Shown here in pieces: positions 9,945-26,625 of a stretch of DNA of 64,000 nt. Under the pieces are notes generated by a model. That model searched no databases, had not been told where the DNA came from, and saw only the letters and a list, made by a program, of their open reading frames with translations. The stretch covers positions 96,001 to 160,000 of IMG/VR virus record IMGVR_UViG_3300027974_000020. The stretch is one strand, 5' to 3'. How positions within the stretch are numbered: position 1 is the first letter of the stretch; each line of letters starts with the position of its first letter. Origin of the DNA: a virus. The translations under genes and the position numbers were made by a program.

Positions 9945-10487
9945 ATGATTAAGTTAACTAAAGATATTTTATTATTTACAGATTTATTTGAAGATTTAGA
10001 TAAAATATTTTTAAATTTAACAGAACTAGACTGGAAAATGTGGGGTCGAAATAACAATGATCCAAACTACAGAATTGGCGAAACAGGCACAATAGACGAT
10101 AACGAGTATTTATCTACTCAGATAAAATCTGCTACTCAAAAATGCCTAGATGATTATATGCTAAATTTGGGTATAGATAAAAATTTATATTATCATTACC
10201 AACATGGTCTATATGTAAGAAAATGGGATTTTCCAATGGCCGGCATGAGTGCTCATAGAGATTACACTTATGATGATCAAGGTGGAATCAAAAAAGTTGC
10301 ATATACAATATGCGGTTACCTTAATGATGATTATGAAGGTGGATTAATAGAATTTCCGGAACACGATCTTTCGATTAAACCGCCGGCTGGATCCGCAATT
10401 GTTTTTAACTCAAATGAATTACATCTGGTAACAGACTTAAAAGATAAACACAGATACATGTGGTCTTGCTTTGTTTATAACAAATAA
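9945..10487 (+). CDS. 2OG-Fe(II) oxygenase (prolyl-hydroxylase-like)
   Basis: AHRD, YLNDDYEGGLIEFP, KPPAGSAIVF, HLV..R. Confidence 0.88.
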   Translation: MIKLTKDILLFTDLFEDLDKIFLNLTELDWKMWGRNNNDPNYRIGETGTIDDNEYLSTQIKSATQKCLDDYMLNLGIDKNLYYHYQHGLYVRKWDFPMAGMSAHRDYTYDDQGGIKKVAYTICGYLNDDYEGGLIEFPEHDLSIKPPAGSAIVFNSNELHLVTDLKDKHRYMWSCFVYNK

Positions 10488-11964: not shown

Positions 11965-12047
11965 TCAGTTAATCAACTAAGAAGGCTCTTCCATGGTAGT
12001 GCATGGGAGAGCTTTCTTTTTTATGGCTAGGTATAAGACATCTAGCT

Positions 12048-12148
12048 ATGTCTCATCAGATCGACATTAACTGTCTGTGACCCCAGCGTAGGTAGTGGCT
12101 GGACAACACACTGCTATGGAGACACGCGTGCCATATATAACAGCGTGT
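12048..12148 (+). ncRNA. Predicted tandem triple pseudoknot leader
   Basis: ATGTC/GACAT with CAGA/TCTG; CCAGC/GCTGG with GTAGTG/CACTGC; TATGG/CCATA with ACACGC/GCGTGT. Confidence 0.65.
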
Positions 12149-12164
12149 AATAAGGAGGTAGCTT

Positions 12165-12449
12165 ATCGCTGCTATAACACAAGGTAAGACAGTTACATTC
12201 AAGCAAGTTGATGATATCATCAATTCTGCCGCTAAGGAATACCGGGTTTACCACTACAATGGTGGACAGGTCTTCATCCGTTTAAGCGCGTTGGATAATA
12301 TGATGATGGTTATCGACCATTCAACAGTAGACATTACAGTTGAGTTGTTTGACGGAACTGCATACTTGGCTGCATATGCCAATAACAACACTGAATACAG
12401 CAACCGTTTTATTGCTGCGCCATCACAATTGGCTGTGTTGTTTGCTTAA
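12165..12449 (+). CDS. Hypothetical protein (94 aa) with probable non-canonical ATC start
   Basis: TAAGGAGGT SD 5 nt before ATC; 95-codon open frame fills the unit up to the terminator. Confidence 0.65.
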   Translation: MAAITQGKTVTFKQVDDIINSAAKEYRVYHYNGGQVFIRLSALDNMMMVIDHSTVDITVELFDGTAYLAAYANNNTEYSNRFIAAPSQLAVLFA

Positions 12450-12553
12450 GTAAGTAATAAAGAAAGATACCCTGGGGTCTTCGGACCCTGGGGTTCTTTT
12501 TTTATGACTAGGACAAAGGTCTTATGTCAATACTCTCTAGGAGGGGAGTAGAT

Positions 12554-12823
12554 ATGAATATGAAAGACAAACTAATAATGGCAATAATTGCAGTATTATC
12601 AGTGCTTGCAATTGTTAGCTTTGTAGATGCAAGTAACAACCCAGTATCCTGCCAAGTTGACAGTTTGGTAGCGACATATGGAGATACCTATTGGACATTG
12701 AGCAGTGATGCTGGTTGTGTTGGTGGGTATGATAAGCAAAGTAGGGTTGGGCAGATAATTGATCTTAATGGAGGTTCTGCGGATCTCCGTCATGGTCAAT
12801 TGGTAATATTCCCAACTAAGTAA
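12554..12823 (+). CDS. Membrane-anchored LysM-like domain protein
   Basis: N-terminal TM; GDTYWTL...IIDLNG...LRHGQLVIFP. Confidence 0.7.
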   Translation: MNMKDKLIMAIIAVLSVLAIVSFVDASNNPVSCQVDSLVATYGDTYWTLSSDAGCVGGYDKQSRVGQIIDLNGGSADLRHGQLVIFPTK

Positions 12824-12915
12824 ATTAAGTAAGTAAACCCAAAAAGAATTCCCCGAGCTGGTACCCTCTGCCAGCTTGGGGTTTTCTTTTTATGACTAGA
12901 GCTCAGGCTTTAGTC

Positions 12916-12975
12916 GGGCTATAAGCGTTACGCCCTGAAAGTAATGCACCGGTCGTTGGCTACCGTAAAGCTAAC
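12916..12975 (+). ncRNA. Predicted tandem double pseudoknot leader
   Basis: GGGC/GCCC with GCGTTAC/GTAATGC; CGGT/ACCG with GTTGGCT/AGCTAAC. Confidence 0.6.
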
Positions 12976-13027
12976 ACCTGTTGCGCAATTTGGGACTTTC
13001 TCTCCCAAAAAAACAGGAGGAATACTA

Positions 13028-13351
13028 ATGATTACAATGATCATTATCGCAACACTCATGGTTGTGGCTGCAGTTGCAGTTACAGTCTGCGTGATGCAGC
13101 AAAAGGCAATCGTTCTGATCAATCAGATCAAGAACCTCATCGTTCAATTGAGCGAAGAGAAAGCAAAAGCAGCCAAGGTTCTTTCCGAAAAGGAACAAGA
13201 ACTGAGGGAAGCCAAGGATACAGCACGCCGTCATTTAAATGATTGGAATGCTCTCTACTTGGAGAAAAGGGCAGCTGAAGCCAAAAAGGCAGAAGCAGCA
13301 AAGAAGACAGAAGCGAAAGCTACTGTAAAGAAGACCAAAACAACCAAATAA
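13028..13351 (+). CDS. TM plus coiled-coil protein with Lys/Ala-rich tail
   Basis: AGGAGG RBS before ATG 13028. Confidence 0.75.
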   Translation: MITMIIIATLMVVAAVAVTVCVMQQKAIVLINQIKNLIVQLSEEKAKAAKVLSEKEQELREAKDTARRHLNDWNALYLEKRAAEAKKAEAAKKTEAKATVKKTKTTK

Positions 13352-13476
13352 GACAAATTAGGGAAAGTCCTAATTGCGCAACAACAAAAGATGCCCTGGG
13401 GGTTAACACCCCTGGGGTTTTCTTTTTATACCTAGAACATAGGTCCTTATAATAAGTGAAGGGAGGTGAAATAGAA

Positions 13477-13650
13477 ATGGAAAACGCTAGGAATGGCATA
13501 TTCCCACATAAGTGTGGATGGCCATCCTGTGAGTTTGTAGTGGAATTGGACGATGAGCCCAATTGCTTTACTCATTCACCAGACAGCGGCAGTTCCGAGG
13601 TCGGCTACTCTGCAAGGAGAGATGCTGAACGCGGAATCGTACGGTTCTGA
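13477..13650 (+). CDS. Small Cys/His zinc-binding protein
   Basis: GGAGGTG RBS; CGWPSC...CFTH. Confidence 0.6.
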   Translation: MENARNGIFPHKCGWPSCEFVVELDDEPNCFTHSPDSGSSEVGYSARRDAERGIVRF

Positions 13651-13785
13651 TGGGATGGCAGCCAACTGACTAAGAGTCGGGGCAGATGAATAGTGCCTGG
13701 CAACAGAAACTATCATGAAAGAATAATCTCAGGGGTTAGCATCCCTGAGATTTTCTTTTTATGACTAGGGAAAAGGTCTCTAGTC

Positions 13786-13836
13786 TGGTTAGCAGACCAT
13801 AATCTGTTTAGCCGTAGCTGTACATACGGTGCCAGC
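13786..13836 (+). ncRNA. Predicted tandem double pseudoknot leader
   Basis: TGGT/ACCA with AGCAG/CTGTT; GCCGTA/TACGGT with GCTG/CAGC. Confidence 0.5.
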
Positions 13837-13879
13837 GTGATGGGCGCATCCCATCTTTATGATTTCTTAAGGAGGAATC

Positions 13880-14170
13880 ATGTTCGGCATCATATTGCTA
13901 CAAAACTGGTTGACTTTTGCGATATTCGCAATTTTGATATCAGTCTCGGTAATGATCATTATCGAGGAAACAAAAGGTAAAGGTATCATTAACACTATCC
14001 TATACACTTTAGGATTTGTGTCACTGTTGTCTTTATGGCCTGTATTTAATATCTATACAGCCATACCTATCACAAACGATAATAATTTATTATTTATAAT
14101 AGCTTTATTTACAACATATTTTGCTCTGGTATTTGCTGGAACAGAGTTGATGGATAAAGCTACAAAATAA
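13880..14170 (+). CDS. Membrane protein (3 TM)
   Basis: AAGGAGG RBS; hydrophobic. Confidence 0.75.
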   Translation: MFGIILLQNWLTFAIFAILISVSVMIIIEETKGKGIINTILYTLGFVSLLSLWPVFNIYTAIPITNDNNLLFIIALFTTYFALVFAGTELMDKATK

Positions 14171-14336
14171 TAAAAAACTAGAATACTTTAGTTGTACAGA
14201 GCTAAAGTTTTCTTACCAAACTAAGAAGTCCTTGGGGTTAGCATCCCAGGGATTTCTTTTTTATGCCTAGTGGATAGGTCACTAGGTAGGCAATCTTATT
14301 ATGCCTACAAATAATAAGAGGAAGGGGAGCCTCATC

Positions 14337-14522
14337 GTGTCTGACACCTTGAAGCGCTTTCCTACCCTGACCTTACAATGCGCAGACACAATCTGCTTCA
14401 TTTGTAAGACAGAAACCAAAGTCAATGGGGATACCAACCCCTATGACCTTGGTTTTGCCAGGGTAGGTGGCAACTCCGCCAACGGGTACGAGATCTATCA
14501 CATCTCGTGCTGCAACGGCTGA
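14337..14522 (+). CDS. Small Cys-rich protein
   Basis: AAGGGGAG RBS before GTG; CFIC...HISCC. Confidence 0.6.
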   Translation: MSDTLKRFPTLTLQCADTICFICKTETKVNGDTNPYDLGFARVGGNSANGYEIYHISCCNG

Positions 14523-14680
14523 GTTAGCCTAATACTGGCCACCTGTGCCTGTCTCATAACTGGGGGACATTAAACTACTCAGTGAGAGGGTAGCCCAAAG
14601 CATTAGCTAGGGCTACCCTCTTTTTATATGACTAGGAGAAAGGCTTCTGGTTAAACCAAACATACAACAAAGGAGAAACC

Positions 14681-14950
14681 ATGCGTACATCACCACGCTG
14701 TGTTGGTATAGTAAAACCAACAAGTAGGCGAGTGTTAAAGAAGGGGTTGGAGAGGTATCCTCAGATAAAGGGGGATGTAACTCAACAACGGTGCTTAAAA
14801 AGTATCAACTGCCCACACCACAGGGTTGCTAATGCTAGAATTATGGAGCTTCCATTAGAAGAACCATATGTAGAGCTAACAAGAGAGCAAATAAGGCAAT
14901 TGATTAACATCGGTTACATGGCTGAAACAGGCCGTCCATACTACTTATAG
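14681..14950 (+). CDS. Hypothetical protein (C..C..CPHH zinc motif)
   Basis: AAGGAG RBS. Confidence 0.7.
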   Translation: MRTSPRCVGIVKPTSRRVLKKGLERYPQIKGDVTQQRCLKSINCPHHRVANARIMELPLEEPYVELTREQIRQLINIGYMAETGRPYYL

Positions 14951-14974
14951 ACCATAGGTCAAAGGAGAATAACA

Positions 14975-16102
14975 ATGAAATCATTAAAGCGTTTATTAAT
15001 AATCTCTACTGTTGCAATTTCTTTTATTGGGGTCAATGAAAGTTCTGCTTCAGCTAGAAATAACAAATGTGTAAAAGTTGGCACATTTAAAACGGCAGTA
15101 AAAGTTAAGTACGAATGCAAGAGATTGACCACAGGTCTCAGATGGGTAAAGGTACAAACAAAAGTTGTACCAACAACACCTGCTGAAGTTATAATACCAA
15201 TACCAACTGATTGGTCAAATATTGAAAAGTATGCACAAAACATACCATACGCAGCATGGAAGGCAAGTGTTGGCGCGATCACCACTGGTATGCCTCAGAT
15301 GCCAACAGTGAATATCATTAATGGACCAAATGCCCTTATAGCTTATTCAACTCCGGAAGTTAAGATTAATTTAACATCACGTTTATTTTCATCTGCAAAG
15401 CAACTTTCGCAGGTAAATATTATGCGTTTTGGGTATGATGATATTGGATGGGCTAATTCAAAGTGGTTAGAGCAATTTAATGGCCAAGATAATTCTGTTC
15501 CAAGAGAAATATTCGATACGTGTAAAACTACCACGACATGTTGGGGTGGCATTTCGCGCAATACCAAAAGTGGAATAGCTTGGTTTGCTTTGGCAACAAT
15601 GAAAGATAATCTATCTGAACCTAAACTTGTAAACGGGACTAACTACGCGCACTCATATGCTCATGCAATCCAATACGCAGCACTGTCTGAAATACCAGCA
15701 CAAAGACTGCCAAGATGGTTGCTTGAAGGAGTTGCTACTTATTCACAAGCTGCTGTTGAAGGCATGGTAAGTTTTGATTTATACAAGTCTGAACGCACAA
15801 GAGAAACAGGAGGATTAAATAACTCTCTTGAATGGCTTGAATCATTTCTTGCCCCAACAGGCAATGATTGGTCTCATTGGAACAAATATACTGGTAATGA
15901 TTCTTGGAGAGTTTATGATGTTGGTTTTATGGCAACCGAAGCGTTAGTAGCCCTCAGAGGACCAAACACTGTAATGAGTTTGTATACAAAAGTAGGAAGT
16001 GGTCAAACTTTTGATCAAGCGTTTAATGAGCTATATGGAATCTCTTGGGCTGAAGCTCACAAGATAATTGCTCGTGTAATTTCCTTACAAATTAACAAAT
16101 AA
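14975..16102 (+). CDS. Secreted protein with degenerate gluzincin-like motif
   Basis: Signal peptide; HSYAH (HExxH with E replaced by S) followed by PRWLLEGVA. Confidence 0.65.
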   Translation: MKSLKRLLIISTVAISFIGVNESSASARNNKCVKVGTFKTAVKVKYECKRLTTGLRWVKVQTKVVPTTPAEVIIPIPTDWSNIEKYAQNIPYAAWKASVGAITTGMPQMPTVNIINGPNALIAYSTPEVKINLTSRLFSSAKQLSQVNIMRFGYDDIGWANSKWLEQFNGQDNSVPREIFDTCKTTTTCWGGISRNTKSGIAWFALATMKDNLSEPKLVNGTNYAHSYAHAIQYAALSEIPAQRLPRWLLEGVATYSQAAVEGMVSFDLYKSERTRETGGLNNSLEWLESFLAPTGNDWSHWNKYTGNDSWRVYDVGFMATEALVALRGPNTVMSLYTKVGSGQTFDQAFNELYGISWAEAHKIIARVISLQINK

Positions 16103-16190
16103 TCTTATTAAAGAATAGAGGGTCCTTCGGGGCCCTTTTTTCTTTATGACTAGTGGATAGGCCACTAGTCTTTAGTTAAGGAGAAGAGTA

Positions 16191-16517
16191 ATGAAAGAAA
16201 TGGAATGGTGTGGATGCATGGATGTGCGTTCATGGAAAGATGGCTTTGCTGATATTTTTAGCAGAGAGTTAGTAGAAGGTAAAAGAAAAGGTGAGTTGTA
16301 TGAATTGTTTGAAGTTAAAAGCTTTGAAGAATTTAAGGATGAGTTAAGTGATATTGCATGGGGTGTAGGACGTATTGTTGGTGGTTTGGTTGGTAAGCCA
16401 TATGTACGGATTATTGGTGATGCAATACATTACAATAAGGTTGTTTCTCGTATGAATGAATATGGTTGTATGAGGAGCAAGCGATTTCTTATTAAGGGTG
16501 AATGTCCTAATAAGTGA
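16191..16517 (+). CDS. Hypothetical protein
   Basis: AAGGAG RBS; fills one repeat-delimited unit. Confidence 0.75.
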   Translation: MKEMEWCGCMDVRSWKDGFADIFSRELVEGKRKGELYELFEVKSFEEFKDELSDIAWGVGRIVGGLVGKPYVRIIGDAIHYNKVVSRMNEYGCMRSKRFLIKGECPNK

Positions 16518-16633
16518 TTTAAGTTAATTAGTAAATAATTGACGGGGTATGCCCCTAGGGTCGTTTGATCCTAGGGGTATATTTTTTATGCCTAGTGGAA
16601 TGGCCGCAGGTTATAGATTATAGGAGAAGAGAA

Positions 16634-17065
16634 ATGAAAGAGAAAGCAATTATAGTTGATATTGATGGTACTTTGTTTGAAGAGGTGCCAGGTTGGACAA
16701 TGGAGACTGATGCATGGTGGGTGGAAGAAACACTTAAGATGCGTGAGTTGAAAGTTGGAATTGGATTAATTAAAGTATTTAAGGAAATGGGATTTAAGTT
16801 GGTTTTCTTGACAGCAAGAGGACAAAGCTGCAAGAAGAATACTTTGATTAAGTTTAAGGAAGCTGGTATTGATAACTTGGTAGATTCGATGTGGCACAGG
16901 CCAGTTAAGTGGAATGGCGTGGCACCAGTTGAATATAAGAAGTTCATGATGCAACGGATTATGAAAAAGTATGATGTTGTGTTTGCTATGGATGATAGCG
17001 ACAAGAACTTGGAAATGTTTAAGGGATTGGGTATCAAGGTATTTGATGCAAAGAGGTGGTGGTGA
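16634..17065 (+). CDS. HAD-superfamily phosphatase (polynucleotide-kinase phosphatase type)
   Basis: DIDGTL, LTAR, K, MDD motifs; AGGAG RBS before ATG 16634. Confidence 0.85.
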   Translation: MKEKAIIVDIDGTLFEEVPGWTMETDAWWVEETLKMRELKVGIGLIKVFKEMGFKLVFLTARGQSCKKNTLIKFKEAGIDNLVDSMWHRPVKWNGVAPVEYKKFMMQRIMKKYDVVFAMDDSDKNLEMFKGLGIKVFDAKRWW

Positions 17066-17148
17066 GGTTATTGATAAACCTCAGACCAAAGAAACTAGGG
17101 TCCTTCGAGGCCCTTTTTTCTTTATGACTAGGACACAAGTCTTAAGTC

Positions 17149-17213
17149 TGTCTATTGGTAGACATAAACTTCATGACCCCACTATTGGTAGTAGGTGGCA
17201 AATCATACTACCA
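17149..17213 (+). ncRNA. Predicted tandem pseudoknot leader
   Basis: TGTCTA/TAGACA-TAAAC-TTCATGA; CCAC/GTGG with TGGTAGTA/TACTACCA. Confidence 0.6.
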
Positions 17214-17251
17214 GGGCACAGCCTTCACTGTGACTAATAAAGGAGAATAAA

Positions 17252-17932
17252 TTGGAAATGAACGAAGAGCCCAAAGCAATGCCAAAGTGGTTGGGTAAAT
17301 TCCCAGCCTACATCAAACAATTGTGGTTGGATTCAAACAAAATTGAACCCACACCACCAGTGGAACCATCACTGCCAGCAGAAGGCGAATTTCGTTTTCT
17401 GTTGATTCCACAAAATGACACAAGCAACTCCGAGGCGGTACCGATGTTGGTGCTCATCCAGAAAGTACTTCAAGATGGGTACTTCCAGGTAATGCTTACT
17501 CATTGTGAAGATGCAATGCAAACATACTCTGATCTTTACGTCACTAGTGGCGAAACAGGTTTGGGGTATGGTGTTTTCATTAGCACCGCAATACAAAATC
17601 AAGCTAACGTGAATTGCTTGAGCGAAACTGCAGTTGGTAAGTTGATTCCTTCAATGGTACGAGCTAGGGGTACATACAATTTTGGACCTAATGATGAGTG
17701 GCGCAGAGGACGTCGCTTTTCTTCAGATCGATTTGTTGCACAACTAGATCCACGTTGGAAGTTCGTTAATGAACAACTTACTGCAATGCAATACCTACTG
17801 GGCGCATATGAAGATGAAGGCGATACTCGTGACTCTGAATTGAGCGCAAAACACCAAGCAGAAGACATGAAATCGTTTTACCAAGTTGACCGTGACAATG
17901 GTGAACTTCTTCCATCGCAGAAAAACAACTAA
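17252..17932 (+). CDS. Hypothetical protein
   Basis: AAGGAG RBS; 226 aa. Confidence 0.75.
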   Translation: MEMNEEPKAMPKWLGKFPAYIKQLWLDSNKIEPTPPVEPSLPAEGEFRFLLIPQNDTSNSEAVPMLVLIQKVLQDGYFQVMLTHCEDAMQTYSDLYVTSGETGLGYGVFISTAIQNQANVNCLSETAVGKLIPSMVRARGTYNFGPNDEWRRGRRFSSDRFVAQLDPRWKFVNEQLTAMQYLLGAYEDEGDTRDSELSAKHQAEDMKSFYQVDRDNGELLPSQKNN

Positions 17933-17941
17933 GTAAGTAAT

Positions 17942-18012
17942 AGGTCTGATTGGATCGACCTTAACTGTCCATGAACCAACCGTTAACCAAGAGGTTGTAA
18001 TTCACATGGTTA
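17942..18012 (+). ncRNA. Predicted tandem double pseudoknot leader
   Basis: AGGTC/GACCT with TGGA/TCCA; CAACC/GGTTG with TAACCA/TGGTTA. Confidence 0.65.
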
Positions 18013-18040
18013 TTTAATCACAAACAAAAGGAGAAGGATA

Positions 18041-18559
18041 ATGTCAGATAACAAAAACAAATTCCAGTCAAGGCTGGATGCAATCTCAAAGGTTGCAATT
18101 GTTTTACATGCCTTTGGCACATGGTATGAACTACAAATTGAATCCAGTGACAAAAATCGGTTGACTGATGGGGCACTGAAGTATACACAGCATGTTAGCT
18201 TGTTCCCAAGCAGCAGAACATTGTATTCTTTTGTTGGTGTTTCAGAAGATGGTGCAATTGTCAATGGTTTCATGCATGATGGAACAAGCAACGACAATGG
18301 TGGTTATGGCAGTGATTCGTTTGAATTGACGATGAAAGATGGATCACACAAAGTCATAACAGGACCATGGAGCTCAAGACCAGGAGTTCATACTGTTAAC
18401 AGCGGTATTCAATACACTGAAGTTAGAGTTGGTTATGGTATGTATGGATTCTCAAGGGAATTCATTGAAGCCATAATTGATCGATTTAACCTCGATGTAA
18501 ATCTTGACTCAGTAACTTTGGAAGACAAAGAAATTAATCTGAAAGTAACACCTAAGTAA
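18041..18559 (+). CDS. Hypothetical phage protein
   Basis: RBS; GGYG...GPWSS motif. Confidence 0.75.
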   Translation: MSDNKNKFQSRLDAISKVAIVLHAFGTWYELQIESSDKNRLTDGALKYTQHVSLFPSSRTLYSFVGVSEDGAIVNGFMHDGTSNDNGGYGSDSFELTMKDGSHKVITGPWSSRPGVHTVNSGIQYTEVRVGYGMYGFSREFIEAIIDRFNLDVNLDSVTLEDKEINLKVTPK

Positions 18560-18655
18560 GTAGCAGCGGTGAGCCTGGAGTTAGGTTTCAGGCTAAGGAA
18601 ATTAGGGTCCTTCGGGGCCCTTTTTTCTTTATGACTAGGAATAAGGTTCCAAGTC

Positions 18656-18725
18656 CGTCTGATTGGATCGACGTAAAATGTCCATGACCCCTGGTTATTG
18701 GTTACCCAGGACAACTACGTAACCA
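18656..18725 (+). ncRNA. Predicted tandem double pseudoknot leader
   Basis: CGTC/GACG with TGGA/TCCA; CCTGG/CCAGG with TGGTTAC/GTAACCA. Confidence 0.65.
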
Positions 18726-18773
18726 GAGAGACACTATCTCTCTATAATAAAAAGTGTAATAAGGAGGAATGTT

Positions 18774-19163
18774 ATCAAAGAGCAAATCAACAAAATCAAC
18801 CAGGTCACTGATGGTGACAAGGTCAAGTGCGAGCCGTGCTTTGGCACAGGTAAGTACATGAGCAAAACCGTCATCGATGGAACATGTTTCCGTTGCAAAG
18901 GCACTGGTTCAGAAAAAGCAATGTCAATCAAGCAATACAATTTCATCAAGGAATTGTTCATGGCATTGGTGAAAATGAACATCATTGTGAAAGAGAACAA
19001 TGAATGGCATGAAATGGTTAACACCATGAACCAACACAAGGATGGAATTACATTGCGGTCATCCAAGTGGGCATCAGACAAGATTGAGGAATACAAGGCT
19101 CGCAAGAACCGTGTCCTCAAACCTAAGAGGCCAGTGTATTCAGTTACCCACTGTGGAATTTGA
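18774..19163 (+). CDS. DnaJ-type zinc-finger protein, probable ATC start
   Basis: Frame extends upstream of ATG 18858 to include CEPCFGTG, partner of CFRCKGTG; AAGGAGG 6 nt before ATC 18774. Confidence 0.7.
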   Translation: MKEQINKINQVTDGDKVKCEPCFGTGKYMSKTVIDGTCFRCKGTGSEKAMSIKQYNFIKELFMALVKMNIIVKENNEWHEMVNTMNQHKDGITLRSSKWASDKIEEYKARKNRVLKPKRPVYSVTHCGI

Positions 19164-19354
19164 GCAGTGGGATGAACCACAGTGGGTAACTGAAGAATGG
19201 AAAGCTGGAGAAGATGCAGAGGCTGACATATACTAGCACCGCCAGGTGTATAGGTAGTCATCAAGTCAAAGAAGAGGGGGTCCTTCGGGGCCCTCTTTTC
19301 TTTTATGCCTAGGACACAGGTCTCAGGCTAACACTCTCTAGGAGGGGAGTAATC

Positions 19355-20806
19355 ATGAAGAATAAACCAACAACAAACAAGGAGGAAACGGTGTATAAAG
19401 ACACTGTCTACGCAAAACTGAGAAGGGCACTTTACAATGTCATTCTCGAAGGTAAATTCATGCAAGAAACTCAATGGGACGAGAATGGACGATGCCACAT
19501 GGTTCAGACATTTGGTGACCGTGGAATTATTGCAACAATGCAACGAAAAGCAAATAACAAAGGATGGGTTGTATTCTTTACTTTGTGCATGTACAAGCAC
19601 GAGCAAAATCACATTCCATTCATGCGTGATTTGAAAGTTAGATTGACTATCAATGAAACTCCATCTGGAGTAAGATTATTGTGGTTTGTTAATGGTAAGC
19701 CACAATGGATGGTAGAAAGTAGTCAAATGGCTTTCTCAAATAAATTCCATCATACTGGACATATAGTTCAAGAAGTTATTAATCAGATCAAGAGTATATA
19801 TTCTCCTGAAGATTTTATACCGATCTTGAAGTACATGCAAAATCCAACATGCAAAGAGTATACTTTGTATGGCCTTAACCAAAGGTGGATGAAAAAGTTA
19901 TCAGGTGGAACAAACCCTAGGCAAATCTTGAATAAAATCTATGGCAAAGATGGGCAGGATGGGTTGAGCAGAAATGCTTTTGGTTCAAATATTGGCAAAA
20001 AGAGTTTTGCTACATTTGCTATAGCAGCTGAGCTAGTGCGATATTTGAAATCATTTCCTACATCATTCTTTGATAAAATCATTCTTGATGACTTTGCAGT
20101 ACAAGATATTGCATACTTGGGGATGATGTATCAAGATGTAACTTACATCCAATATTTCATTAAGTACTTTAATCACAGTAAAATCCAACAAGATTTTATT
20201 AATGCGATTAATAACTTTGAAATGTATCCACATTCTGATTATGACATTTCAGATGCTACAGAACGTTTCTTTAGGATGAGCATTTGGCAGGAAGCACGTG
20301 ATACCGGCAGGATGTTCAAGGAAATAAAGAACAGAGCTGTTCGGAGAAACATCATTGCACTTAAAGGCACGGTTCAAGAAACCCATGACCTTGTCACTAT
20401 CGAGAATGCAAAGCTAGCTCGAGAAGATAAGCAAATCAAATACAGTGATAAGAGCCTTATCCTGGATGGTCAACAGATAACAGATAATATTATTTCTGTT
20501 CTTCCGAAGACAACGTTTGATTTAATATTATGGGGTTCACAACAGCACAACTGCATAGGTAGCTATGGAGATCGTGTTGCTCGTGGCACAGGTGCGATTG
20601 TTGTTGGATTCAAAGATGTGACAACAGATACTTGGGTCGGCCATGCTGAACTCAATAACTATTTCAACAGCTTTGGAAGTTCTTGGACAATCATGCAGTT
20701 GAGGGGCAAATATAACTCAAACCTTGATGAGTCAGATGAAACTACTATTCGTTTGTTTCTGGACAACATACTCAATGCTTGGAATGAAGAGTTAGTATTG
20801 CCATAA
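19355..20806 (+). CDS. PcfJ-like domain protein
   Basis: C-terminal LILWGSQQHNCIGSY...MQLRGKYN; start may be GTG 19391. Confidence 0.75.
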   Translation: MKNKPTTNKEETVYKDTVYAKLRRALYNVILEGKFMQETQWDENGRCHMVQTFGDRGIIATMQRKANNKGWVVFFTLCMYKHEQNHIPFMRDLKVRLTINETPSGVRLLWFVNGKPQWMVESSQMAFSNKFHHTGHIVQEVINQIKSIYSPEDFIPILKYMQNPTCKEYTLYGLNQRWMKKLSGGTNPRQILNKIYGKDGQDGLSRNAFGSNIGKKSFATFAIAAELVRYLKSFPTSFFDKIILDDFAVQDIAYLGMMYQDVTYIQYFIKYFNHSKIQQDFINAINNFEMYPHSDYDISDATERFFRMSIWQEARDTGRMFKEIKNRAVRRNIIALKGTVQETHDLVTIENAKLAREDKQIKYSDKSLILDGQQITDNIISVLPKTTFDLILWGSQQHNCIGSYGDRVARGTGAIVVGFKDVTTDTWVGHAELNNYFNSFGSSWTIMQLRGKYNSNLDESDETTIRLFLDNILNAWNEELVLP

Positions 20807-20936
20807 AGTTTTACCTCAGGTAAATAAGAGAGAAGGGTCCTTCGGGACTCTTTTCTTTTATGCCTAGTTCACAGGTCTCAGATCACTGAGGTCGCTAGGC
20901 AAGTAATACAAACCAATAAACCCTTAAGGAGGGAAT

Positions 20937-23528
20937 ATGGAAGACCAACCGGTCAAACCGCCCGATGCAGCGGCCAATGCATCAACAAAGGAGAAGAAGA
21001 TGCCAAAAGGTATCATCACTTTCCTGAAGGGGCGCTTTCGCGTTCTGACAAATAATCCAACTCCGAAAGAGGAGCAGGCATACAATTTGTCTCAGGAAAC
21101 CAATAAGCCAGTCCCGTTTGGACGGATCAAGACTGTTACTGGATACAATTATGTCCAGGACGTCTACGCTGTTCAGACTGGTGACTTCACCTACTCCTTG
21201 TTGGAGAACAAACTTACTAAGCGGGGAATTAAGTTCCGTTTAGGAGTCGTCTCTAACAAGGATCTATCAGAGCTCGTAATCAAACACGAACTGTTCAGTC
21301 TTAATGACATGATCAGTAAGTGCAGGTTCGCATGGGCTAACGCATCATACACCTTCTTCCTGGAGGTTCAAGACAGTAAAGAAGCATCAAGCTTTGATCT
21401 GTCTGATCTTGGGTTGGAGGTCTATGACTTCAAGAAGACCAGCAAACGTTTGCAGGAAGTGACTCGTATCACTCAAATGCATTCGTCTGGTCCGATTGGC
21501 AAACTTGATTATCGCATGTTGGAAGATCTTCCTGGTGAAGAACTTGCATATGATGGTCCAGTATTTGTCAGCGACTCATTTGCAGTGCGTTCTTGCTTTA
21601 GTATGACTGATGGTCCTGCTAAGAACAAGCACATTGCAATGATCAATCGCGGTAAGATCGGTCCAATGATTGGTCGTATTCTGATGGATCAAGGTGAAGT
21701 TAAGGGCCTTGTCCACGTTGTTCCACGACAACAGCTAGGTGCGGATGTGGTTTTCCACAAATCTGCTCTGAAGCGAGAGTTAAAGACTGACGATGGACGT
21801 TGGCACTATACTGCCTTCAAACACAAGAACCTCCACACTGCTATGTGGGATATGCAAACTATGTTCAATAACCATACCTGGTTAATGACCAAAGAGCAAT
21901 TCACACTGGACATGGAGTCTGTTATCACTGACTTTAACAAGTCTGTTGAGAATGGACAGCTTCCTGACTGGATTATCCACCAGGAAACTGACGGGCACAA
22001 GGATGACTCAGCTCCACAAGTAGAGCATGTGACATCTGGCTGGAAGAAGAGTTACATCCGCTGGCAACAAGCTGGTTTGGATGTAACTGCATCTAGCAAC
22101 CTCGTCTACATGGCTTTCGGATCATTGCTGAACCAAATGCGTTCTGCTTTGAAACGAAACACGTGGTGGGTTCCCATCTCTAATGCCTTTACGGCGACAG
22201 TAACCACCTTCGATGCTTTGGAGGTCATGGGTAACTTTGAGCTGCCTCAGCACAAACGAGACATGGTGTTCTTTGATGAACGCTTTGGCTGTATTGTGCC
22301 GACTAAGCGGTTCATTGAGACTGCTGACCTTCATGACACGTGGGATCAGGACGGTGACCAAGCTAAGTTCATCCGCATTAAACTGTGGAGTTCTTCGCTT
22401 GTTATGAGCCTTGATGGATACAACCATCCGGAACTCAGGGAAACATATGTCATTCCTGCTGATTTGGTAGTGCCAAGCACTCCTGAAGAGGCAATTGATA
22501 TGTGTGTCGTTATCCGTTCACCAAACGGTCCTGGCGGTTACTCTATCGAACGGTTTGATGCTGAAACGATGCCATGGCTTCGTGTAGCGGAAGATCGTGT
22601 ACAGGTAATTGATCTGGCCAAAGCACCAGCTGCAATGAGCACTTTGCTCGTTACAACTGAATGCGGTCAGATTAATAGCTCCACTACCTACAGCAAGGAA
22701 TTGTTCAACCGGGATCATGCTCTTAATATGATCTTGGCACAGATGAATAACCCTGGTGTTGGTAGGTACGCTAATCTCATTATGGTTTGGGCTGCAACAT
22801 TTGGTCCAAGCTATCCTGATAAGTTGCCTGCAATTGGTAACGATGTCATTGACTGTGTTCAACAGACCGCAGACCTTGGTTCATTTGTTCAATTGCAAAG
22901 TGACTACTCAGAAATGGCTGAAAGCATTGCTCAGGCGATCATTGACAGCGGTTGTGGTATTGACCGTTATGTTCTTGAGACCCGGTTCCCTGCACTCAGC
23001 GATGAGACACGCCAAATGCTGGTAGATATTGCAGTAGACGGTCAGTTTACTGAGATGTACAACGCATACAATCAAACTATTACAAAGGTGCAAAATATCG
23101 CATCCAAGGGTAGCTTTGATCTGCGTTTGACATCTGACACTCGTAACAAAGTGTACAATGCAATTCCAGCTATGAGGGAGTCAACCTCTGTTTGGTGCCG
23201 TGGCATCTGGTCAAAGTATGAACGTGAACTCTCAAGGGTTGACGGTAAGTACTCTGAACTGTCCAAGAATACCAATCGCTTTGTAAAGATGTCTGCTGTT
23301 GCACAACGCACAGAAGAAATCTCTACCATCATTGGTGCACTGTTGGATGAAGTCAAGGCAACATCACATCCTGAGCTCTATGCTCTTGCTATCTACCGTT
23401 GGATCATTGATCCGGAACTGACTCGCAGTAAGTATGGCGTGTCTGACCGTATCATCTTCCAGAACGGAATAGACGGACAAGAGACCATCATGGATCTCAT
23501 TATCACAGCAATCAAGGACCTGAAGTAA
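20937..23528 (+). CDS. Putative single-subunit two-barrel RNA polymerase (cellular RdRP/YonO-like), paralogue A
   Basis: KKTSKRL, YDGPVFVS, GRI..GEVKGLV, DVVFHKSALK, catalytic DQDGD (22344-22358), IRSPN, GVGRYAN, VIDCVQ; alternative start ATG 21000. Confidence 0.75.
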   Translation: MEDQPVKPPDAAANASTKEKKMPKGIITFLKGRFRVLTNNPTPKEEQAYNLSQETNKPVPFGRIKTVTGYNYVQDVYAVQTGDFTYSLLENKLTKRGIKFRLGVVSNKDLSELVIKHELFSLNDMISKCRFAWANASYTFFLEVQDSKEASSFDLSDLGLEVYDFKKTSKRLQEVTRITQMHSSGPIGKLDYRMLEDLPGEELAYDGPVFVSDSFAVRSCFSMTDGPAKNKHIAMINRGKIGPMIGRILMDQGEVKGLVHVVPRQQLGADVVFHKSALKRELKTDDGRWHYTAFKHKNLHTAMWDMQTMFNNHTWLMTKEQFTLDMESVITDFNKSVENGQLPDWIIHQETDGHKDDSAPQVEHVTSGWKKSYIRWQQAGLDVTASSNLVYMAFGSLLNQMRSALKRNTWWVPISNAFTATVTTFDALEVMGNFELPQHKRDMVFFDERFGCIVPTKRFIETADLHDTWDQDGDQAKFIRIKLWSSSLVMSLDGYNHPELRETYVIPADLVVPSTPEEAIDMCVVIRSPNGPGGYSIERFDAETMPWLRVAEDRVQVIDLAKAPAAMSTLLVTTECGQINSSTTYSKELFNRDHALNMILAQMNNPGVGRYANLIMVWAATFGPSYPDKLPAIGNDVIDCVQQTADLGSFVQLQSDYSEMAESIAQAIIDSGCGIDRYVLETRFPALSDETRQMLVDIAVDGQFTEMYNAYNQTITKVQNIASKGSFDLRLTSDTRNKVYNAIPAMRESTSVWCRGIWSKYERELSRVDGKYSELSKNTNRFVKMSAVAQRTEEISTIIGALLDEVKATSHPELYALAIYRWIIDPELTRSKYGVSDRIIFQNGIDGQETIMDLIITAIKDLK

Positions 23529-23872
23529 TAGGTTCTTCCGAGTAAAGAGAGAGAGCCCCTGGGGAAACCTAGGGGTTCTTTCTTTATTCCTAGATCCTAG
23601 GTCTTTAGTTATTATATTAATATTTTTTTTTCCTAGATCTTAGGACCCTATTCTAAAGTCACTCGGCGATTGCTTAGCCCTCAGACTCAAAATAGGCTGA
23701 GATTCTAAATCCTCTTTGGCTCATTTCCCTTGACGGGCTTGGGCTAAAAGGGGGGATTTTCTCTCTTCTTTGCTCAATGTCCCTAACGGGTCTGGGCCAA
23801 AAGGGGGGGATTATTCCCTATTATAAAGGCATTCTTGGGAGCCTACAATTCCAAGAGAACAAGGAGACGATT

Positions 23873-24385
23873 GTGACACTCACAGTCTACATTAATACCC
23901 CTCCTGCTGTTCGGGAGAACAAGACCACAGGTGAGACTTTCTTCTCATCTTTGGTTGGCGTTTCTGCCGAACTCAGGGCAACACTTCCACAGGTGGACGT
24001 TCTCAACTGGAACATCCAAAAGTGGGAAAACCTCACGCTTGACGCTGAAGTTGCTGCACTCATTGGCTACACCGCTGATGAGCCAGTTGACGAAGTGGTC
24101 ATTCCAAAGCACGAAGCCATTGACGCCTTCTTCCAATCTGCTGTTGCAGGTGGACTGAAGTTGGCAATCGTTTGTGACTCCGTCCAGCACGGGAAAGTCA
24201 CTGAAGGTGTTAACCCTAACACTAACAAGAACGAGCGCCGTATGGCTATCTGGCCTGAAGGTGAGTTCAGCATTGAACTGTTCAAGCCGACTGCAAAGGC
24301 TAAAGTCAGTGCTGCTACGGCAGACCGCTTGCGTAACAACAAGCAAGAAACAGCAGTAACTTCGGACGGAGATGCACCGTTCTGA
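23873..24385 (+). CDS. Hypothetical protein with SSB-like acidic-aromatic tail
   Basis: AAGGAG RBS before GTG; ends DGDAPF. Confidence 0.7.
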   Translation: MTLTVYINTPPAVRENKTTGETFFSSLVGVSAELRATLPQVDVLNWNIQKWENLTLDAEVAALIGYTADEPVDEVVIPKHEAIDAFFQSAVAGGLKLAIVCDSVQHGKVTEGVNPNTNKNERRMAIWPEGEFSIELFKPTAKAKVSAATADRLRNNKQETAVTSDGDAPF

Positions 24386-24410
24386 GTTGACTGCTCATTC
24401 CCCAAGGTGT

Positions 24411-24460
24411 GGAGTGTGGGACATTTGCTTCGGCGAGTGTCCTACACTCCCCCTTTTTTT
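24411..24460 (+). terminator. Intrinsic terminator
   Basis: GGAGTGTGGGACA...TGTCCTACACTCC followed by T7. Confidence 0.75.
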
Positions 24461-24687
24461 ACTTAGTTCCTCGGCTACTCCTACGGAGTAGGCCTCAGAA
24501 CTAATTCGCTGGCTGACGCCAGCTCAGACTCTTGCTATCCCCTCCTTGGATGTGCTAGCTCAGTAGTATAATAATATTGTATTACTGGGCTAGACATTCT
24601 AAAAAAAAATTCAACTAGTACAATAGTCACCAAAACTCAACTACAAAAGGGGGGTTTTCTAAATATTCCTATCTTGAAAGGATTGTT

Positions 24688-24906
24688 ATGACATCAGAAG
24701 ATACCGTATGGCACATCTCAAGTGCAATCATTGCTGCAATGTTTCCACCTAAATCATGGTGTGAAGAAGCAACCAACGATGAACTTGACAAAGCATTGTT
24801 CAGGGTCCTCAACAGTGAAGGGGAATCAAAAATCTCTCACATCAAAGGACTGAACAAGTTGGATGAAGTCCTTGCTACTCTTGCTAAAGAAGCAGGAATA
24901 AAATAA
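24688..24906 (+). CDS. Hypothetical protein
   Basis: GAAAGGA RBS. Confidence 0.65.
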   Translation: MTSEDTVWHISSAIIAAMFPPKSWCEEATNDELDKALFRVLNSEGESKISHIKGLNKLDEVLATLAKEAGIK

Positions 24907-25127
24907 TGTCAACAATAAGAATTAACACAAACACGTGTTTGCATTGCAAGCAAGAAGGTTTCATCGAAATGTCAGAAGATGAATACAATCGAGGCATCAA
25001 TGCATTCAACGAAGGAGAATTAATTCAATGTGCATTCCCAGGTCTATCTGTAGATCAAAGGGAACAAGTCATTTCTGGAACTCATCCAGAGTGTTGGAAT
25101 GAACTGTTCGCAGAAAAAGAACATTAG
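24906..25127 (+). CDS. Small phage zinc-binding protein
   Basis: CLHC...IQCAFPGL..DQRE..ISGTHPECW. Confidence 0.75.
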   Translation: MSTIRINTNTCLHCKQEGFIEMSEDEYNRGINAFNEGELIQCAFPGLSVDQREQVISGTHPECWNELFAEKEH

Positions 25128-25191
25128 ATCTACGGGCATTTGTTTGTAAAAGCTGACCCTTTTTGGGTTGCGCAGACATTTGCGCCGTATA

Positions 25192-25287
25192 CAGGTAATC
25201 AACACCTGAAAACCCCTCGGTAGTCCTATCGAGATGAAGTTGATTATGGATAGACGAGCTATAGCGTCTTTAAACATTTAGGATAGC
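25192..25287 (+). ncRNA. Predicted pseudoknotted intergenic RNA
   Basis: CAGGT/ACCTG with AATCAAC/GTTGATT; AGACG/CGTCT with GCTAT/ATAGC. Confidence 0.5.
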
Positions 25288-25505
25288 CTAGGCCACTGGT
25301 ACAAGGGCGACACAAGAACACTGTCTGGTATATGCAGAAGAAGCGTTGTATCAATATACTTTTAAAAAATAAGACTAGTACCCTACGTAAAAGGGGGGAA
25401 GGGCAATATGAAAACAATAACATTAATATTAACATCATTCATCGCCGGCGGACTTACCATGATCGTATGGGTTCGCAGGATGTTCAAAACAATGGAAGGA
25501 CAATT

Positions 25506-25691
25506 ATGAGTTACAAAAAGTTATTTTGGGGCTATGTAACACTAAACGTTATTTGGGGATTTCTTTATGGAATCTACCTTGGTGGCAAACAAGTCCAAGC
25601 AAGCGACAGGATCAGTGAGTTCAAGTTCAGCGATAAAATGCAAGAAATGGTCAAGTACTACGAAAACAAGAATAAGGAACAAGTAGCATGA
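25506..25691 (+). CDS. Small membrane protein
   Basis: Start refined to ATG 25506; one TM. Confidence 0.55.
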   Translation: MSYKKLFWGYVTLNVIWGFLYGIYLGGKQVQASDRISEFKFSDKMQEMVKYYENKNKEQVA

Positions 25692-25955
25692 TGATCCAAG
25701 TCATAGATGGTGAACTACGTACAGGCGTATGTGCAATATGTCACAAAAGAAAACCAACCATAACTGTATCAATAAACACTAAAGGAAGTCGGATACTCAC
25801 CACTGAAGATTGGTGCTTAGAAGACTTTAATAGTCTAAAAGAAAGAATATCACTAAAATGAAGAAACTCACAGCAATCACTACAGCAATAGCATTTGTTC
25901 TTGCCGGCTTAGCCGTATATCTCAAGAAAATGAGACTATTCAAAAAGGATAAATC

Positions 25956-26195
25956 ATGAACTCAATACTTATTATTTCACTTGTATTGTCTCATCTACTA
26001 GCCATAGCCATAAGCGCAAAATGGACATCTAAACTCATCTACACTGACATTAAAACTAATTACGATGTTATTGAGTTTGTGCGGGTGATAGAAGAAGTTC
26101 AATCTAGAAGAAACCACCCCACAGCTAGGCCTCAGTTCTATGATTGGGAAACGGAAGAAAAGTTCGAAAACATCATCGATCAATTCGACAAATAA
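25956..26195 (+). CDS. Small membrane protein
   Basis: RBS; N-terminal TM; RRNHPT motif. Confidence 0.65.
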   Translation: MNSILIISLVLSHLLAIAISAKWTSKLIYTDIKTNYDVIEFVRVIEEVQSRRNHPTARPQFYDWETEEKFENIIDQFDK

Positions 26196-26307
26196 TCATT
26201 CTAAACCACCTCCTATAAAAGGGGGGCAATCATAGAAAGGGGTGATGAATGTTCGATTGGTTCTTTGATTTAATAGCTGATCTAATAGATGCAATATTCG
26301 GAAACTA

Positions 26308-26535: not shown

Positions 26536-26625
26536 ACCCAAAAGGGGGGATTGCGTATCTAGTGCAATCTCTTTATATAATATCACATAACAACATATCC
26601 CATAATATCACAGAAAGATAATATC

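What the first reader, a model, noticed from the sequence alone, without database searches (positions are those of the whole stretch)
11981..23647. Gene-cassette array delimited by 14-15 copies of terminator + ATG(A/C)CTAG-N5-AGG element
Seen: nearly every 1-2-gene unit starts with a T-tract then a bipartite motif with invariant 5-nt spacing, e.g. ATGACTAG-GACAA-AGGTC (12504), ATGCCTAG-TGGAT-AGGTC (14263), ATGACTAG-TGGAT-AGGCC (16146), ATGCCTAG-GACAC-AGGTC (19305), ATGCCTAG-TTCAC-AGGTC (20860, upstream of polymerase A). It does not match a sigma70/HrdB TANNNT -10 box. Inference: a phage-polymerase-specific promoter fused to the previous terminator, making each unit an autonomous module; the repeats could also promote recombinational shuffling of units.
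Basis: partly seen in the sequence, partly recalled or inferred. Interest (0 to 1): 0.85.

Follow-up and report, generated by a model that had tools for sequence, protein, structure and literature searches.

The report
Phage terminator-promoter gene cassette array
An uncultured lake jumbo phage fences about 13 small early genes, and its own RNA polymerase gene, with one repeated signal (terminator hairpin, T-run, fixed motif, RNA hairpin) that is most likely a phage-specific promoter, and related phages swap genes at exactly these signals.

Summary
There are 13 good copies and 2 degenerate copies of [GC hairpin + T-run + ATG(A/C/G)CTAG-N5-AGG(T/C)C]. All lie on the + strand at window 11979-23644 and nowhere else in the 169-kb phage genome.

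A sister clade with core ATGGGTAG carries the compensating change in the 3' arm.

The element recurs (about 150 distinct copies) only in metagenomic relatives that carry a homolog of the 863-aa gene closing the array. That protein models as a two-barrel RNA polymerase (QDE-1/RDR2 and Thermus-phage type).

In ten close relatives the cassettes differ in content and order, and synteny breaks fall inside the element. One junction is a clean crossover within the shared repeat.

No sigma-70-like promoter, sigma factor or integrase was found.

Best reading (about 0.55): a composite terminator/promoter, like T4 PeSLs but with a non-sigma-70 promoter read by a phage polymerase, plus a 5' RNA hairpin. 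No transcript data could be obtained, so the promoter role is inferred.

This scan had already noted a similar array in another lake jumbo phage (e1-5343037).

The parts
11979..12049 (+). Element 1: terminator hairpin 11979-12018, T-run, core ATGGCTAG at 12023, 5' hairpin 12023-12049. Followed by a long leader and an ORF at 12177-12449.
12462..12529 (+). Element 2: terminator, T-run, core at 12504, hairpin 12505-12529. ORF 12554-12823.
12844..12915 (+). Element 3: terminator, T-run, core at 12892, 9-bp hairpin 12894-12915. ORF 13028-13351.
13388..13444 (+). Element 4: terminator, T-run, core ATACCTAG at 13428, short hairpin 13430-13444. ORF 13477-13650.
13719..13785 (+). Element 5: terminator, T-run, core at 13761, hairpin 13763-13785. 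ORF 13880-14170.
14223..14288 (+). Element 6: terminator, T-run, core at 14263, hairpin 14264-14288. ORF 14301-14522.
14584..14653 (+). Element 7: terminator, T-run, core at 14628, hairpin 14629-14653. ORFs 14681-14950 and 14975-16102 (weak Peptidase_MA match).
16113..16170 (+). Element 8: terminator, T-run, core at 16146, perfect 9-bp hairpin 16148-16170 with loop ATAGG. ORF 16191-16517.
16545..16611 (+). Element 9: terminator, T-run, core at 16588 (TGG in place of AGG), hairpin 16590-16611. ORF about 16635-17065 (polynucleotide kinase/phosphatase-like PHROG).
17091..17148 (+). Element 10: terminator, T-run, core at 17124 (AAG in place of AGG), hairpin 17126-17148. Long leader, then ORFs 17252-17932 and 18041-18559.
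18598..18655 (+). Element 11: terminator, T-run, core at 18631, hairpin 18633-18655. Long leader, then a CxxCxGxG zinc-finger ORF at about 18774-19163.
19270..19328 (+). Element 12: terminator, T-run, core at 19305, hairpin 19307-19328. ORF 19355-20806 (PcfJ-like domain).
20829..20876 (+). Element 13: terminator, T-run, core at 20860. It lies directly upstream of the polymerase gene.
20937..23528 (+). 863-aa two-barrel RNA-polymerase-like protein (DQDGD loop). It is the last gene driven by the motif, and its homolog marks every genome that holds the array.
23549..23601 (+). Element 14: terminator of the polymerase gene, T-run, variant core ATTCCTAG at 23586. It is conserved at the same offset (+2645 to +2649) in close relatives.
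23610..23644 (+). Element 15 (degenerate): an AT/T-run and TTTCCTAG-N5-AGG, with no GC hairpin before it.

Best explanation
Each copy is a composite transcription signal. An intrinsic terminator (GC hairpin plus T-run) closes the upstream unit, and the abutting T-run plus invariant TATG(A/C/G)CTAG-N5-AGGYC is the promoter and initial transcribed sequence of the next unit. The promoter is not of the sigma-70 type. It is most likely read by a phage-supplied RNA polymerase: either one of the phage's two-barrel enzymes delivered with the virion, or an enzyme not recognised here. The class drives about 13 small early genes and, last, the 863-aa polymerase gene, which would then open the next temporal class. 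By analogy with the phiKZ late signal T(-3)ATG(+1), transcription may start at the G of TATG. The RNA would then begin with the covarying 9-bp hairpin, acting as a 5'-terminal stabiliser or a protein-binding site. Because about 25-40 nt of the element are near-identical between cassettes, homologous recombination between copies deletes, inserts and reorders cassettes (the phage encodes a RecA).

Shown: the anatomy, the conservation, the RNA-type hairpin covariation, the cassette reshuffling at the element, and the polymerase fold.

Inferred: promoter activity, the start site, which polymerase reads it, and the role of the hairpin.
For: (1) Every unit ends in a strong terminator, and terminator-like sites are enriched (30 against 9.5). 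Each downstream gene therefore needs its own start signal, and the motif is the only sequence shared between terminator and ribosome-binding site.

(2) All copies are co-oriented with the genes. In this 169-kb record (estimated 80% complete) and in two complete 210-216-kb relatives they lie only in one cluster ending at the polymerase gene: 17 forward, 0 reverse, 0 for the control pattern.

(3) Sequence is conserved beyond what pairing needs. T-run, ATG, CTAG and AGG keep fixed spacing in 151 distinct copies from genomes whose polymerase is only 37-53% identical.

(4) There is no sigma-70-type signature. Searches of the genome found no sigma-70 r2, beta' or integrase family.

(5) The 863-aa protein models with pLDDT 86.5. 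It matches RDR2/QDE-1 at Z 9.5-12.6 over about 600 residues, Thermus-phage non-virion polymerases at Z 8.7-8.9, and P23-45 gp96 at Z 7.7. It has a paralog at 32760-35321.

(6) Precedent: the P23-45 virion two-barrel polymerase reads a conserved AT-rich motif before pre-early genes, including the gene of the second polymerase (PMC10770324). Jumbo-phage virion polymerases use about 10-nt AT-rich motifs centred near -10, and the phiKZ late signal is T(-3)ATG(+1) (PMC7598289).

(7) Hairpin: mean energy is -9.5 kcal/mol against -3.9 for shuffled sequence and -7.6 for the reverse complement, but only -4.4 with DNA parameters. Cells paired are 69% against 26-44% in slid registers, with 89 double changes against 44. 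In the sister clade the core C is replaced by G, which pairs with C in 12 of 18 copies.

(8) Recombination; RecA.
Against: There is no transcript 5'-end or expression data of any kind. No virion polymerase was identified, and I could not find a third polymerase paralog in the 169 kb held, a record estimated to be 80% complete. The host is unknown, so a host alternative sigma factor cannot be excluded. Relatives of the G001 clade keep the polymerase but have neither the motif nor enriched terminators, so the polymerase does not require this signal. The fixed-register covariation is modest, 69.2% against 65.2% in column shuffles.
Confidence: 0.55

Rival explanations
1. It is a promoter, but it is read by the host RNA polymerase with an unusual host sigma factor or an unrecognised phage-encoded specificity factor. 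This would follow the T7 and T4 logic, in which the host enzyme makes the early genes, including the phage polymerase.
For: The class includes the polymerase gene itself and typical small early ORFans. No virion polymerase was identified. Intrinsic terminators of the bacterial type bound the units.
Against: There is no -35/-10 architecture and no TANNNT box, only one conserved block. No sigma-70 domain is found in the genome. No bacterial genome among 185,579 species holds more than a single, chance-level match.
Confidence: 0.15
2. It is an RNA-level element only. The array is read through as a long transcript, and the conserved hairpin is a processing site, a stabiliser or a binding site for a regulator or antiterminator. 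No initiation occurs at the motif.
For: The hairpin covaries and is much more stable as + strand RNA than as DNA or on the other strand. The loop (A-W-A-G-G) is conserved, as in protein-bound RNA hairpins.
Against: Strong terminators directly upstream of every copy argue against read-through as the main mode. The T-run and ATG outside the hairpin are as conserved as the stem. The core and AGG keep fixed spacing even where the pairing register shifts. No Rfam family matches.
Confidence: 0.17
3. The primary role is recombination or mobility: an integron-attC-like or homing site that moves cassettes, with any effect on transcription secondary.
For: Cassettes are gained, lost and reordered exactly at the element. 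The element contains hairpins, as attC sites do.
Against: No tyrosine recombinase is found in the genome. The crossover lies inside a shared identical stretch, as expected for homologous recombination. Strict co-orientation with the genes and placement between terminator and ribosome-binding site point to an expression signal.
Confidence: 0.05
4. It is a double-stranded DNA operator: the imperfect palindrome GACTAG-N11-CTAGTC binds a dimeric phage or host regulator that switches the whole class on or off.
For: The 3' half CTAGT is moderately conserved, 61-72%. One regulator for a whole temporal class is common in phages.
Against: Arms change together and use G-T pairs on one strand only, which an operator does not need. 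The left half is far better conserved than the right. An operator still leaves the promoter unexplained.
Confidence: 0.06

Closest known systems
PeSLs (promoter-early stem-loops) of T4-type myoviruses (Arbiol et al. 2010, PMC2839356; Comeau et al. 2014, PMC4122927)
   Same: A small composite terminator/promoter repeated between small variable early genes. Indels, replacements and reshuffling between related phages have their breakpoints in the element, consistent with homologous recombination between copies.
   Different: The PeSL promoter is a sigma-70-type T4 early promoter read by host polymerase. Here there is no -35/-10, only a T-run plus TATG(A/C/G)CTAG-N5-AGGYC, followed by a covarying RNA hairpin. 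The phage is an unrelated, unannotated jumbo-phage lineage with two-barrel polymerases.
Promoters of the two-barrel polymerases of Thermus phage P23-45 (Chaban et al. 2024, PMC10770324)
   Same: The phage has paralogous single-chain two-barrel polymerases. A strongly conserved phage-only motif precedes pre-early genes, including the gene of the second polymerase. The 863-aa model matches these enzymes (Z 7.7-8.9).
   Different: The P23-45 enzymes and start sites are shown experimentally (ChIP-seq, ONT-cappable-seq), whereas nothing is shown here. No virion-fused polymerase was found here. I did not compare the motif sequences, because the logos are in figures that are not held. No terminator fusion or cassette shuffling was mentioned in the passages of that paper I read.
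Early and late promoters of jumbo-phage multisubunit polymerases (phiKZ, AR9; review PMC7598289)
   Same: A bioinformatically visible AT-rich motif of about 10 nt lies before the early units. The phiKZ late signal T(-3)ATG(+1) overlaps the start site and depends on downstream sequence; here TATG is invariant after the T-run.
   Different: Those enzymes are split beta/beta' multisubunit polymerases, and none was detected here. The start site here is unknown. Those promoters are not described as fused to terminators or followed by a conserved hairpin.
Coliphage N4 early promoters (hairpin promoters of the virion polymerase)
   Same: An early promoter class associated with a short DNA hairpin and a virion enzyme. 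This comparison rests on general knowledge, not on a test run here.
   Different: N4 hairpins form on the template strand, have 3-nt loops and lie upstream of the start site, and the enzyme is T7-like. Here the hairpin is favoured on the coding strand and as RNA, with 4-5-nt loops.

Membership tests
PeSL (T4-type promoter-early stem-loop) | Composite of an intrinsic-terminator stem-loop and an adjacent or overlapping early promoter, repeated between small ORFs | tested here: inconclusive
   Terminator and repeated motif between small ORFs are shown. Promoter activity is not shown.
PeSL (T4-type promoter-early stem-loop) | The promoter is a sigma-70-type T4 early promoter (-35 and -10 boxes) | tested here: not met
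   There is no two-block architecture and no TANNNT box. The sigma-70 scan found 33 sites against 31.7 expected.
PeSL (T4-type promoter-early stem-loop) | Indel and replacement breakpoints between related genomes fall in the element | tested here: met
   42 of 68 alignment ends (20 of 37 unique) fall within an element covering 9% of the region, p about 4e-12. 100 units fall into 35 clusters with differing order. One junction is a clean crossover.
Virion-RNA-polymerase early promoters (phiKZ/AR9/P23-45 type) | A conserved phage-only motif upstream of early units, absent from the rest of the genome | tested here: met
   The 'early' timing is inferred from gene content and position only.
Virion-RNA-polymerase early promoters (phiKZ/AR9/P23-45 type) | Primary transcript 5' ends at a fixed distance from the motif; transcription independent of host polymerase and of new protein synthesis | not testable with these tools
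Virion-RNA-polymerase early promoters (phiKZ/AR9/P23-45 type) | A polymerase carried in the virion | tested here: inconclusive
   Two two-barrel paralogs are encoded. Neither is known to be packaged, and no polymerase signature was found in the giant virion-type proteins. The record is about 80% complete.
Integron gene cassettes (attC) | An adjacent tyrosine-recombinase integrase, with promoterless cassettes ending in attC | tested here: not met
   PF00589 is absent from the genome while it was found in all 14 control genomes. The cassettes carry terminators and a shared upstream signal.
Two-barrel RNA polymerases (QDE-1/RDR2, YonO, P23-45 gp64/gp96) - for the 863-aa protein | Two double-psi beta-barrels with a DxDGD metal loop | tested here: met
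   The DQDGD loop is invariant (D470, D472, D474) in 25 homologs. The model has pLDDT 86.5. Structure matches reach Z 9.5-12.6 to RDR2/QDE-1 and 8.7-8.9 to phage enzymes, and DPBB domains match residues 180-295. Catalysis and template type were not tested.
Rfam RNA families | Covariance-model match at or above the gathering score | tested here: not met
   Only 5 sub-threshold chance-level hits were found, none at the motif.

The most novel reading that the evidence does not exclude
The element is the first readable promoter consensus for this unannotated family of single-chain two-barrel phage RNA polymerases (QDE-1/YonO-like). Initiation would be at the G of the invariant TATG, so that every early mRNA starts with a clade-specific, covarying 5' hairpin recognised by the polymerase or a partner. 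The same signal drives the next polymerase in a cascade and doubles as the recombination hot spot that builds the accessory early-gene repertoire.
Probability: 0.35. Interest if true: 0.75.

Novelty: new variant of a known kind. Interest (0 to 1): 0.62.

Why it matters
Single-chain two-barrel RNA polymerases of phages are barely characterised. The YonO promoter was still unknown in the 2017 paper that described the enzyme (PMC5467207), phi14:2 early transcripts show no common motif (bioRxiv 2020.03.07.982082), and only P23-45 has mapped promoters. A sharply defined signal of about 35 nt, conserved over a whole lineage of about 200-kb lake phages and placed in front of the polymerase gene, gives a directly testable template for in vitro transcription with the two encoded enzymes. 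It also extends the PeSL principle, in which regulatory repeats act as the joints of modular gene shuffling, beyond T4-type phages and beyond host-type promoters. Finally, it gives a practical marker for finding early and host-takeover genes in uncultured jumbo phages.

Tried and rejected
- Public phage records: blastn of 19000-24000 and tblastn of the 863-aa protein gave no match.
- Pfam, PHROG and PDB sequence searches of the two large proteins gave no hit. Only the structure search was informative.
Close relatives were obtained with the single metagenome scan instead.
- Third polymerase paralog (an earlier AI note says there are three). A family HMM, phmmer, jackhmmer and motif searches over all ORFs of the 169 kb found only the two. 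Pfam and PHROG searches of the 3504-, 2207-, 1922- and 1510-aa proteins gave no polymerase signal.
- The protein atlas call failed on protein length and was not repeated.
- The T7-type polymerase family search (PF00940) found nothing, but its control rang in no genome, so it is uninformative.
- My own crude terminator regex missed the known terminators and was discarded.
- CTAG is not avoided in the genome (ratio 0.92), so restriction avoidance does not explain the motif.
- AAAAGGGGGG as a clean second promoter class: the copies are heterogeneous, since some are ribosome-binding sites and one is a terminator stem.
- The integron reading was rejected because there is no integrase.
Full report
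**Context**

The window is bases 96001-160000 of a single 169,197-bp viral contig, classed as linear and about 80% complete. A minus-strand arm (1 to about 101.9 kb) holds giant and virion-type proteins. A plus-strand arm starts at about 102.1 kb. The array lies 6-15 kb into the plus arm. The phage has no match in the public phage records searched, by DNA or by the 863-aa protein. Many uncultured relatives occur in metagenome and IMG/VR contigs of 145-216 kb.

**Observation**

- The pattern ATG(A/C)CTAG-N5-AGG has 9 exact matches, all + strand, at 12504-20860, against 0.03 expected.
- With 1-2 mismatches the family has 13 members: 12023, 12504, 12892, 13428, 13761, 14263, 14628, 16146, 16588, 17124, 18631, 19305 and 20860.
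- A 14th copy with ATTCCTAG follows the polymerase gene's terminator at 23586. A degenerate 15th lies at 23629.
- Copies 1-14 are preceded by a hairpin of -11 to -30 kcal/mol and a T-run that abuts the ATG. Copy 15 has only a T-run.
- Terminator-like sites number 30 in the region against 9.5 +/- 2.8 in shuffles. Sigma-70-like sites number 33 against 31.7.
- Genome-wide, the composite occurs nowhere else.

The motif overlaps a hairpin. In the commonest geometry G2...C24 (counting the A of ATG as 0) forms 9 pairs around a 5-nt loop A-W-A-G-G. An example is 16148-16170.

- Over 151 distinct copies, the mean energy of the 34 nt from the ATG is -9.5 kcal/mol. After shuffling the downstream part it is -3.9, and for the reverse complement it is -7.6 (p = 4e-13).
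- 104 of 888 pairs are G-U, and the CTAG arm is paired in 99 copies against 25 expected.
- With DNA parameters the energy is only -4.4 (+ strand) and -4.0 (- strand). The structure therefore makes sense mainly as + strand RNA.
- On an ungapped 146-row alignment (A2), 69.2% of cells pair, against 65.2 +/- 0.6 in column shuffles (0 of 500 reach it) and 26-44% in slid registers.
- There are 89 cells with changes on both sides against 44 expected.
- In a sister clade (loci L001, L038) the core is ATGGGTAG, and the G that replaces the C pairs with a C of the 3' arm in 12 of 18 copies. That is a clade-level compensatory change.

Sequence is nevertheless conserved beyond what pairing needs. The T-run (-10 to -1), A0 and T1 (fixed by the search pattern), G2 (89%), TAG (also fixed by the pattern), A13 (87%), G14 (81%), G15 (83%) and C17 (74%) keep fixed positions even where the pairing register shifts by one.

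**Distribution**

- The element recurs in the 10 kb upstream of homologs of the 863-aa protein, in clades where that protein is 37-99% identical.
- In two complete relatives (209.7 kb with terminal repeats, and 216 kb) all 17 matches lie in one cluster, forward with respect to the polymerase gene. There are none in reverse and none for the control pattern.
- One clade (G001/G002) keeps the polymerase but has no motif and no terminator enrichment, 12 against 8.2. There the upstream genes are packed as an operon.
- Among 2.9 million viral contigs, only these relatives hold more than one match. Among 185,579 bacterial and archaeal species genomes there are only single, chance-level matches.

**Cassettes**

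The units hold 1-2 small ORFs, mostly without family matches. The exceptions are weak: DnaJ-type zinc finger, Peptidase_MA, a polynucleotide kinase/phosphatase-like PHROG, and a PcfJ-like domain.

- In ten genomes whose polymerase is 84-99% identical, 100 units fall into 35 clusters with different content and order. Only the pair 'PcfJ-like unit + polymerase' is nearly constant.
- Of 68 ends of synteny alignments of at least 200 columns, 42 lie inside the 76-nt element, which covers 9.0% of the region. Of the 37 unique ends, 20 do so (p about 4e-12).
- The 99%-identical relative L021 lacks exactly the two cassettes between the copies at 16146 and 17124. Its junction has the left flank of the first copy and the right flank of the second. 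The switch lies inside the shared stretch running from the terminator stem to CTAG.
- This is what homologous recombination between repeats produces. The phage encodes a RecA (6464-7426, E = 9e-117) and no tyrosine recombinase.

**The polymerase**

The 863-aa protein has no Pfam, PHROG or PDB sequence match.

- Its model, built from 25 homologs, has pLDDT 86.5 and pTM 0.83.
- It matches maize and Arabidopsis RDR2 and Neurospora QDE-1 (Foldseek E = 6e-7 to 7e-5; Z 9.5-12.6 over about 600 residues).
- It also matches the non-virion polymerases of Thermus phages (8f5m, 8f72; Z 8.9 and 8.7), P23-45 gp96 (Z 7.7) and, weakly, the crAss-like phi14:2 enzyme.
- D470, D472 and D474 of the DQDGD loop are invariant.
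- The 853-aa protein at 32760-35321 is a distant paralog (BLASTP E = 2e-6; family HMM E = 3.6e-34).
- I found no third paralog, no sigma-70 and no beta'.

**Mechanism, and what is inferred**

Because each unit ends in a strong terminator, each following gene needs its own start signal. The motif is the only sequence shared between terminator and ribosome-binding site. It is strictly co-oriented with the genes, confined to one gene class, and unlike a sigma-70 promoter. I therefore read it as a promoter of a phage-specific transcription system, fused to the previous terminator.

Published precedents support this:
- The P23-45 virion polymerase reads a conserved AT-rich motif before pre-early genes, including the gene of the second polymerase (PMC10770324).
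- Jumbo-phage virion polymerases use AT-rich motifs of about 10 nt centred near -10.
- phiKZ late promoters are T(-3)ATG(+1), with a dependence on downstream sequence (PMC7598289).

If the same geometry holds here, the T-run is the -10-like element. The start would be the G of TATG, and the RNA would begin with the hairpin. A 5'-terminal hairpin is a classic mRNA stabiliser (general knowledge, not tested here).

Which enzyme reads the motif is open. The rivals are a host-polymerase promoter, an RNA-only processing or regulatory hairpin on read-through transcripts, a recombination site, and a DNA operator. They are weighed in their own sections.

**Comparison with what is known**

The arrangement works like the PeSLs of T4-type phages: composite terminator/promoter repeats at the joints of shuffled early genes (PMC2839356, PMC4122927). 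It is not a member of that family, because the defining sigma-70-type early promoter is absent. It resembles the promoter classes of phage two-barrel and jumbo-phage polymerases in logic, but the defining experimental features (start sites, polymerase dependence) cannot be tested here.

This scan has already reported a very similar array (T-run + ATRRNTAG + covarying hairpin) in another lake jumbo phage (e1-5343037). That note prompted my search for variant cores. The rest of my analysis was done before I read it.

**Verdict**

The feature is real, strongly non-random and conserved across the lineage. The promoter part is the best inference but is unproven. It is a new variant of a known kind.

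Noticed in passing
window 12160-12180 and 18760-18776: Two cassettes (after the copies at 12023 and 18631) have paralogous leaders of about 130 nt (91% identity to the L021 copy of the 12023 leader). Their reading frames open with no ATG, GTG or TTG. The first sense codon 6 nt after a perfect AAGGAGG is ATC in both (12177 and 18774). This may be a non-canonical AUC start under leader control.
   Followed up: partly
window 12039-12176, 17140-17250, 18647-18770: Long, apparently structured leaders lie between the motif hairpin and the ribosome-binding site in three cassettes. Another first-stage note calls them tandem pseudoknots. No Rfam family matches them.
   Followed up: no
window 23746-32241: AAAAGGGGGG occurs 7 times on the + strand, starting right after the last motif copy (13 matches with one mismatch against 2.45 expected). 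The copies are heterogeneous: some look like ribosome-binding sites and one is a terminator stem.
   Followed up: partly
genome 43-90 kb (minus arm, outside the window); window 10572 and 30982: TACTATAA lies 12-102 nt upstream of about ten gene starts, mostly of the structural arm. It is a candidate late-class promoter containing a TATAAT-like core.
   Followed up: partly
loci L001 8102-13178 and L038 3211-9620: A sister clade carries the same kind of array with core ATGGGTAG in place of ATG(A/C)CTAG, and a matching change in the 3' arm of the hairpin.
   Followed up: yes
window 11979-20856 (terminators): Most terminator stems are extended by an A-rich 5' flank that pairs with the T-run (AAGAA...TTCTT). 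They could therefore terminate in both directions. Two stem families (the GGGTCCTTCGGGGCCC type and the CCCTGGGG type) are clustered in the two halves of the array, which suggests local spread or gene conversion.
   Followed up: no
window 6464-7426 and 9945-10487: A full-length RecA homolog (E = 9e-117) and a 2OG-Fe(II) oxygenase lie just upstream of the array.
   Followed up: no
window 19355-20806: The 483-aa protein with a PcfJ-like C-terminal domain is the one cassette that stays next to the polymerase gene in most close relatives (cluster 1).
   Followed up: no
window 30097-45325 and genome 165076-165151: There are seven tRNA genes (Arg-TCT, Leu-TAA, Asn, Lys-TTT, Met, Thr-TGT, Gly-TCC), mostly for A/U-ending codons. 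This hints at a host with higher G+C than the phage.
   Followed up: no
genome 21350-31864 (minus strand, outside the window): A 3504-aa protein matches PHROG 20474, annotated 'endolysin' (E = 5e-124), over several stretches. The 2207-aa and 1922-aa neighbours have no family match.
   Followed up: no
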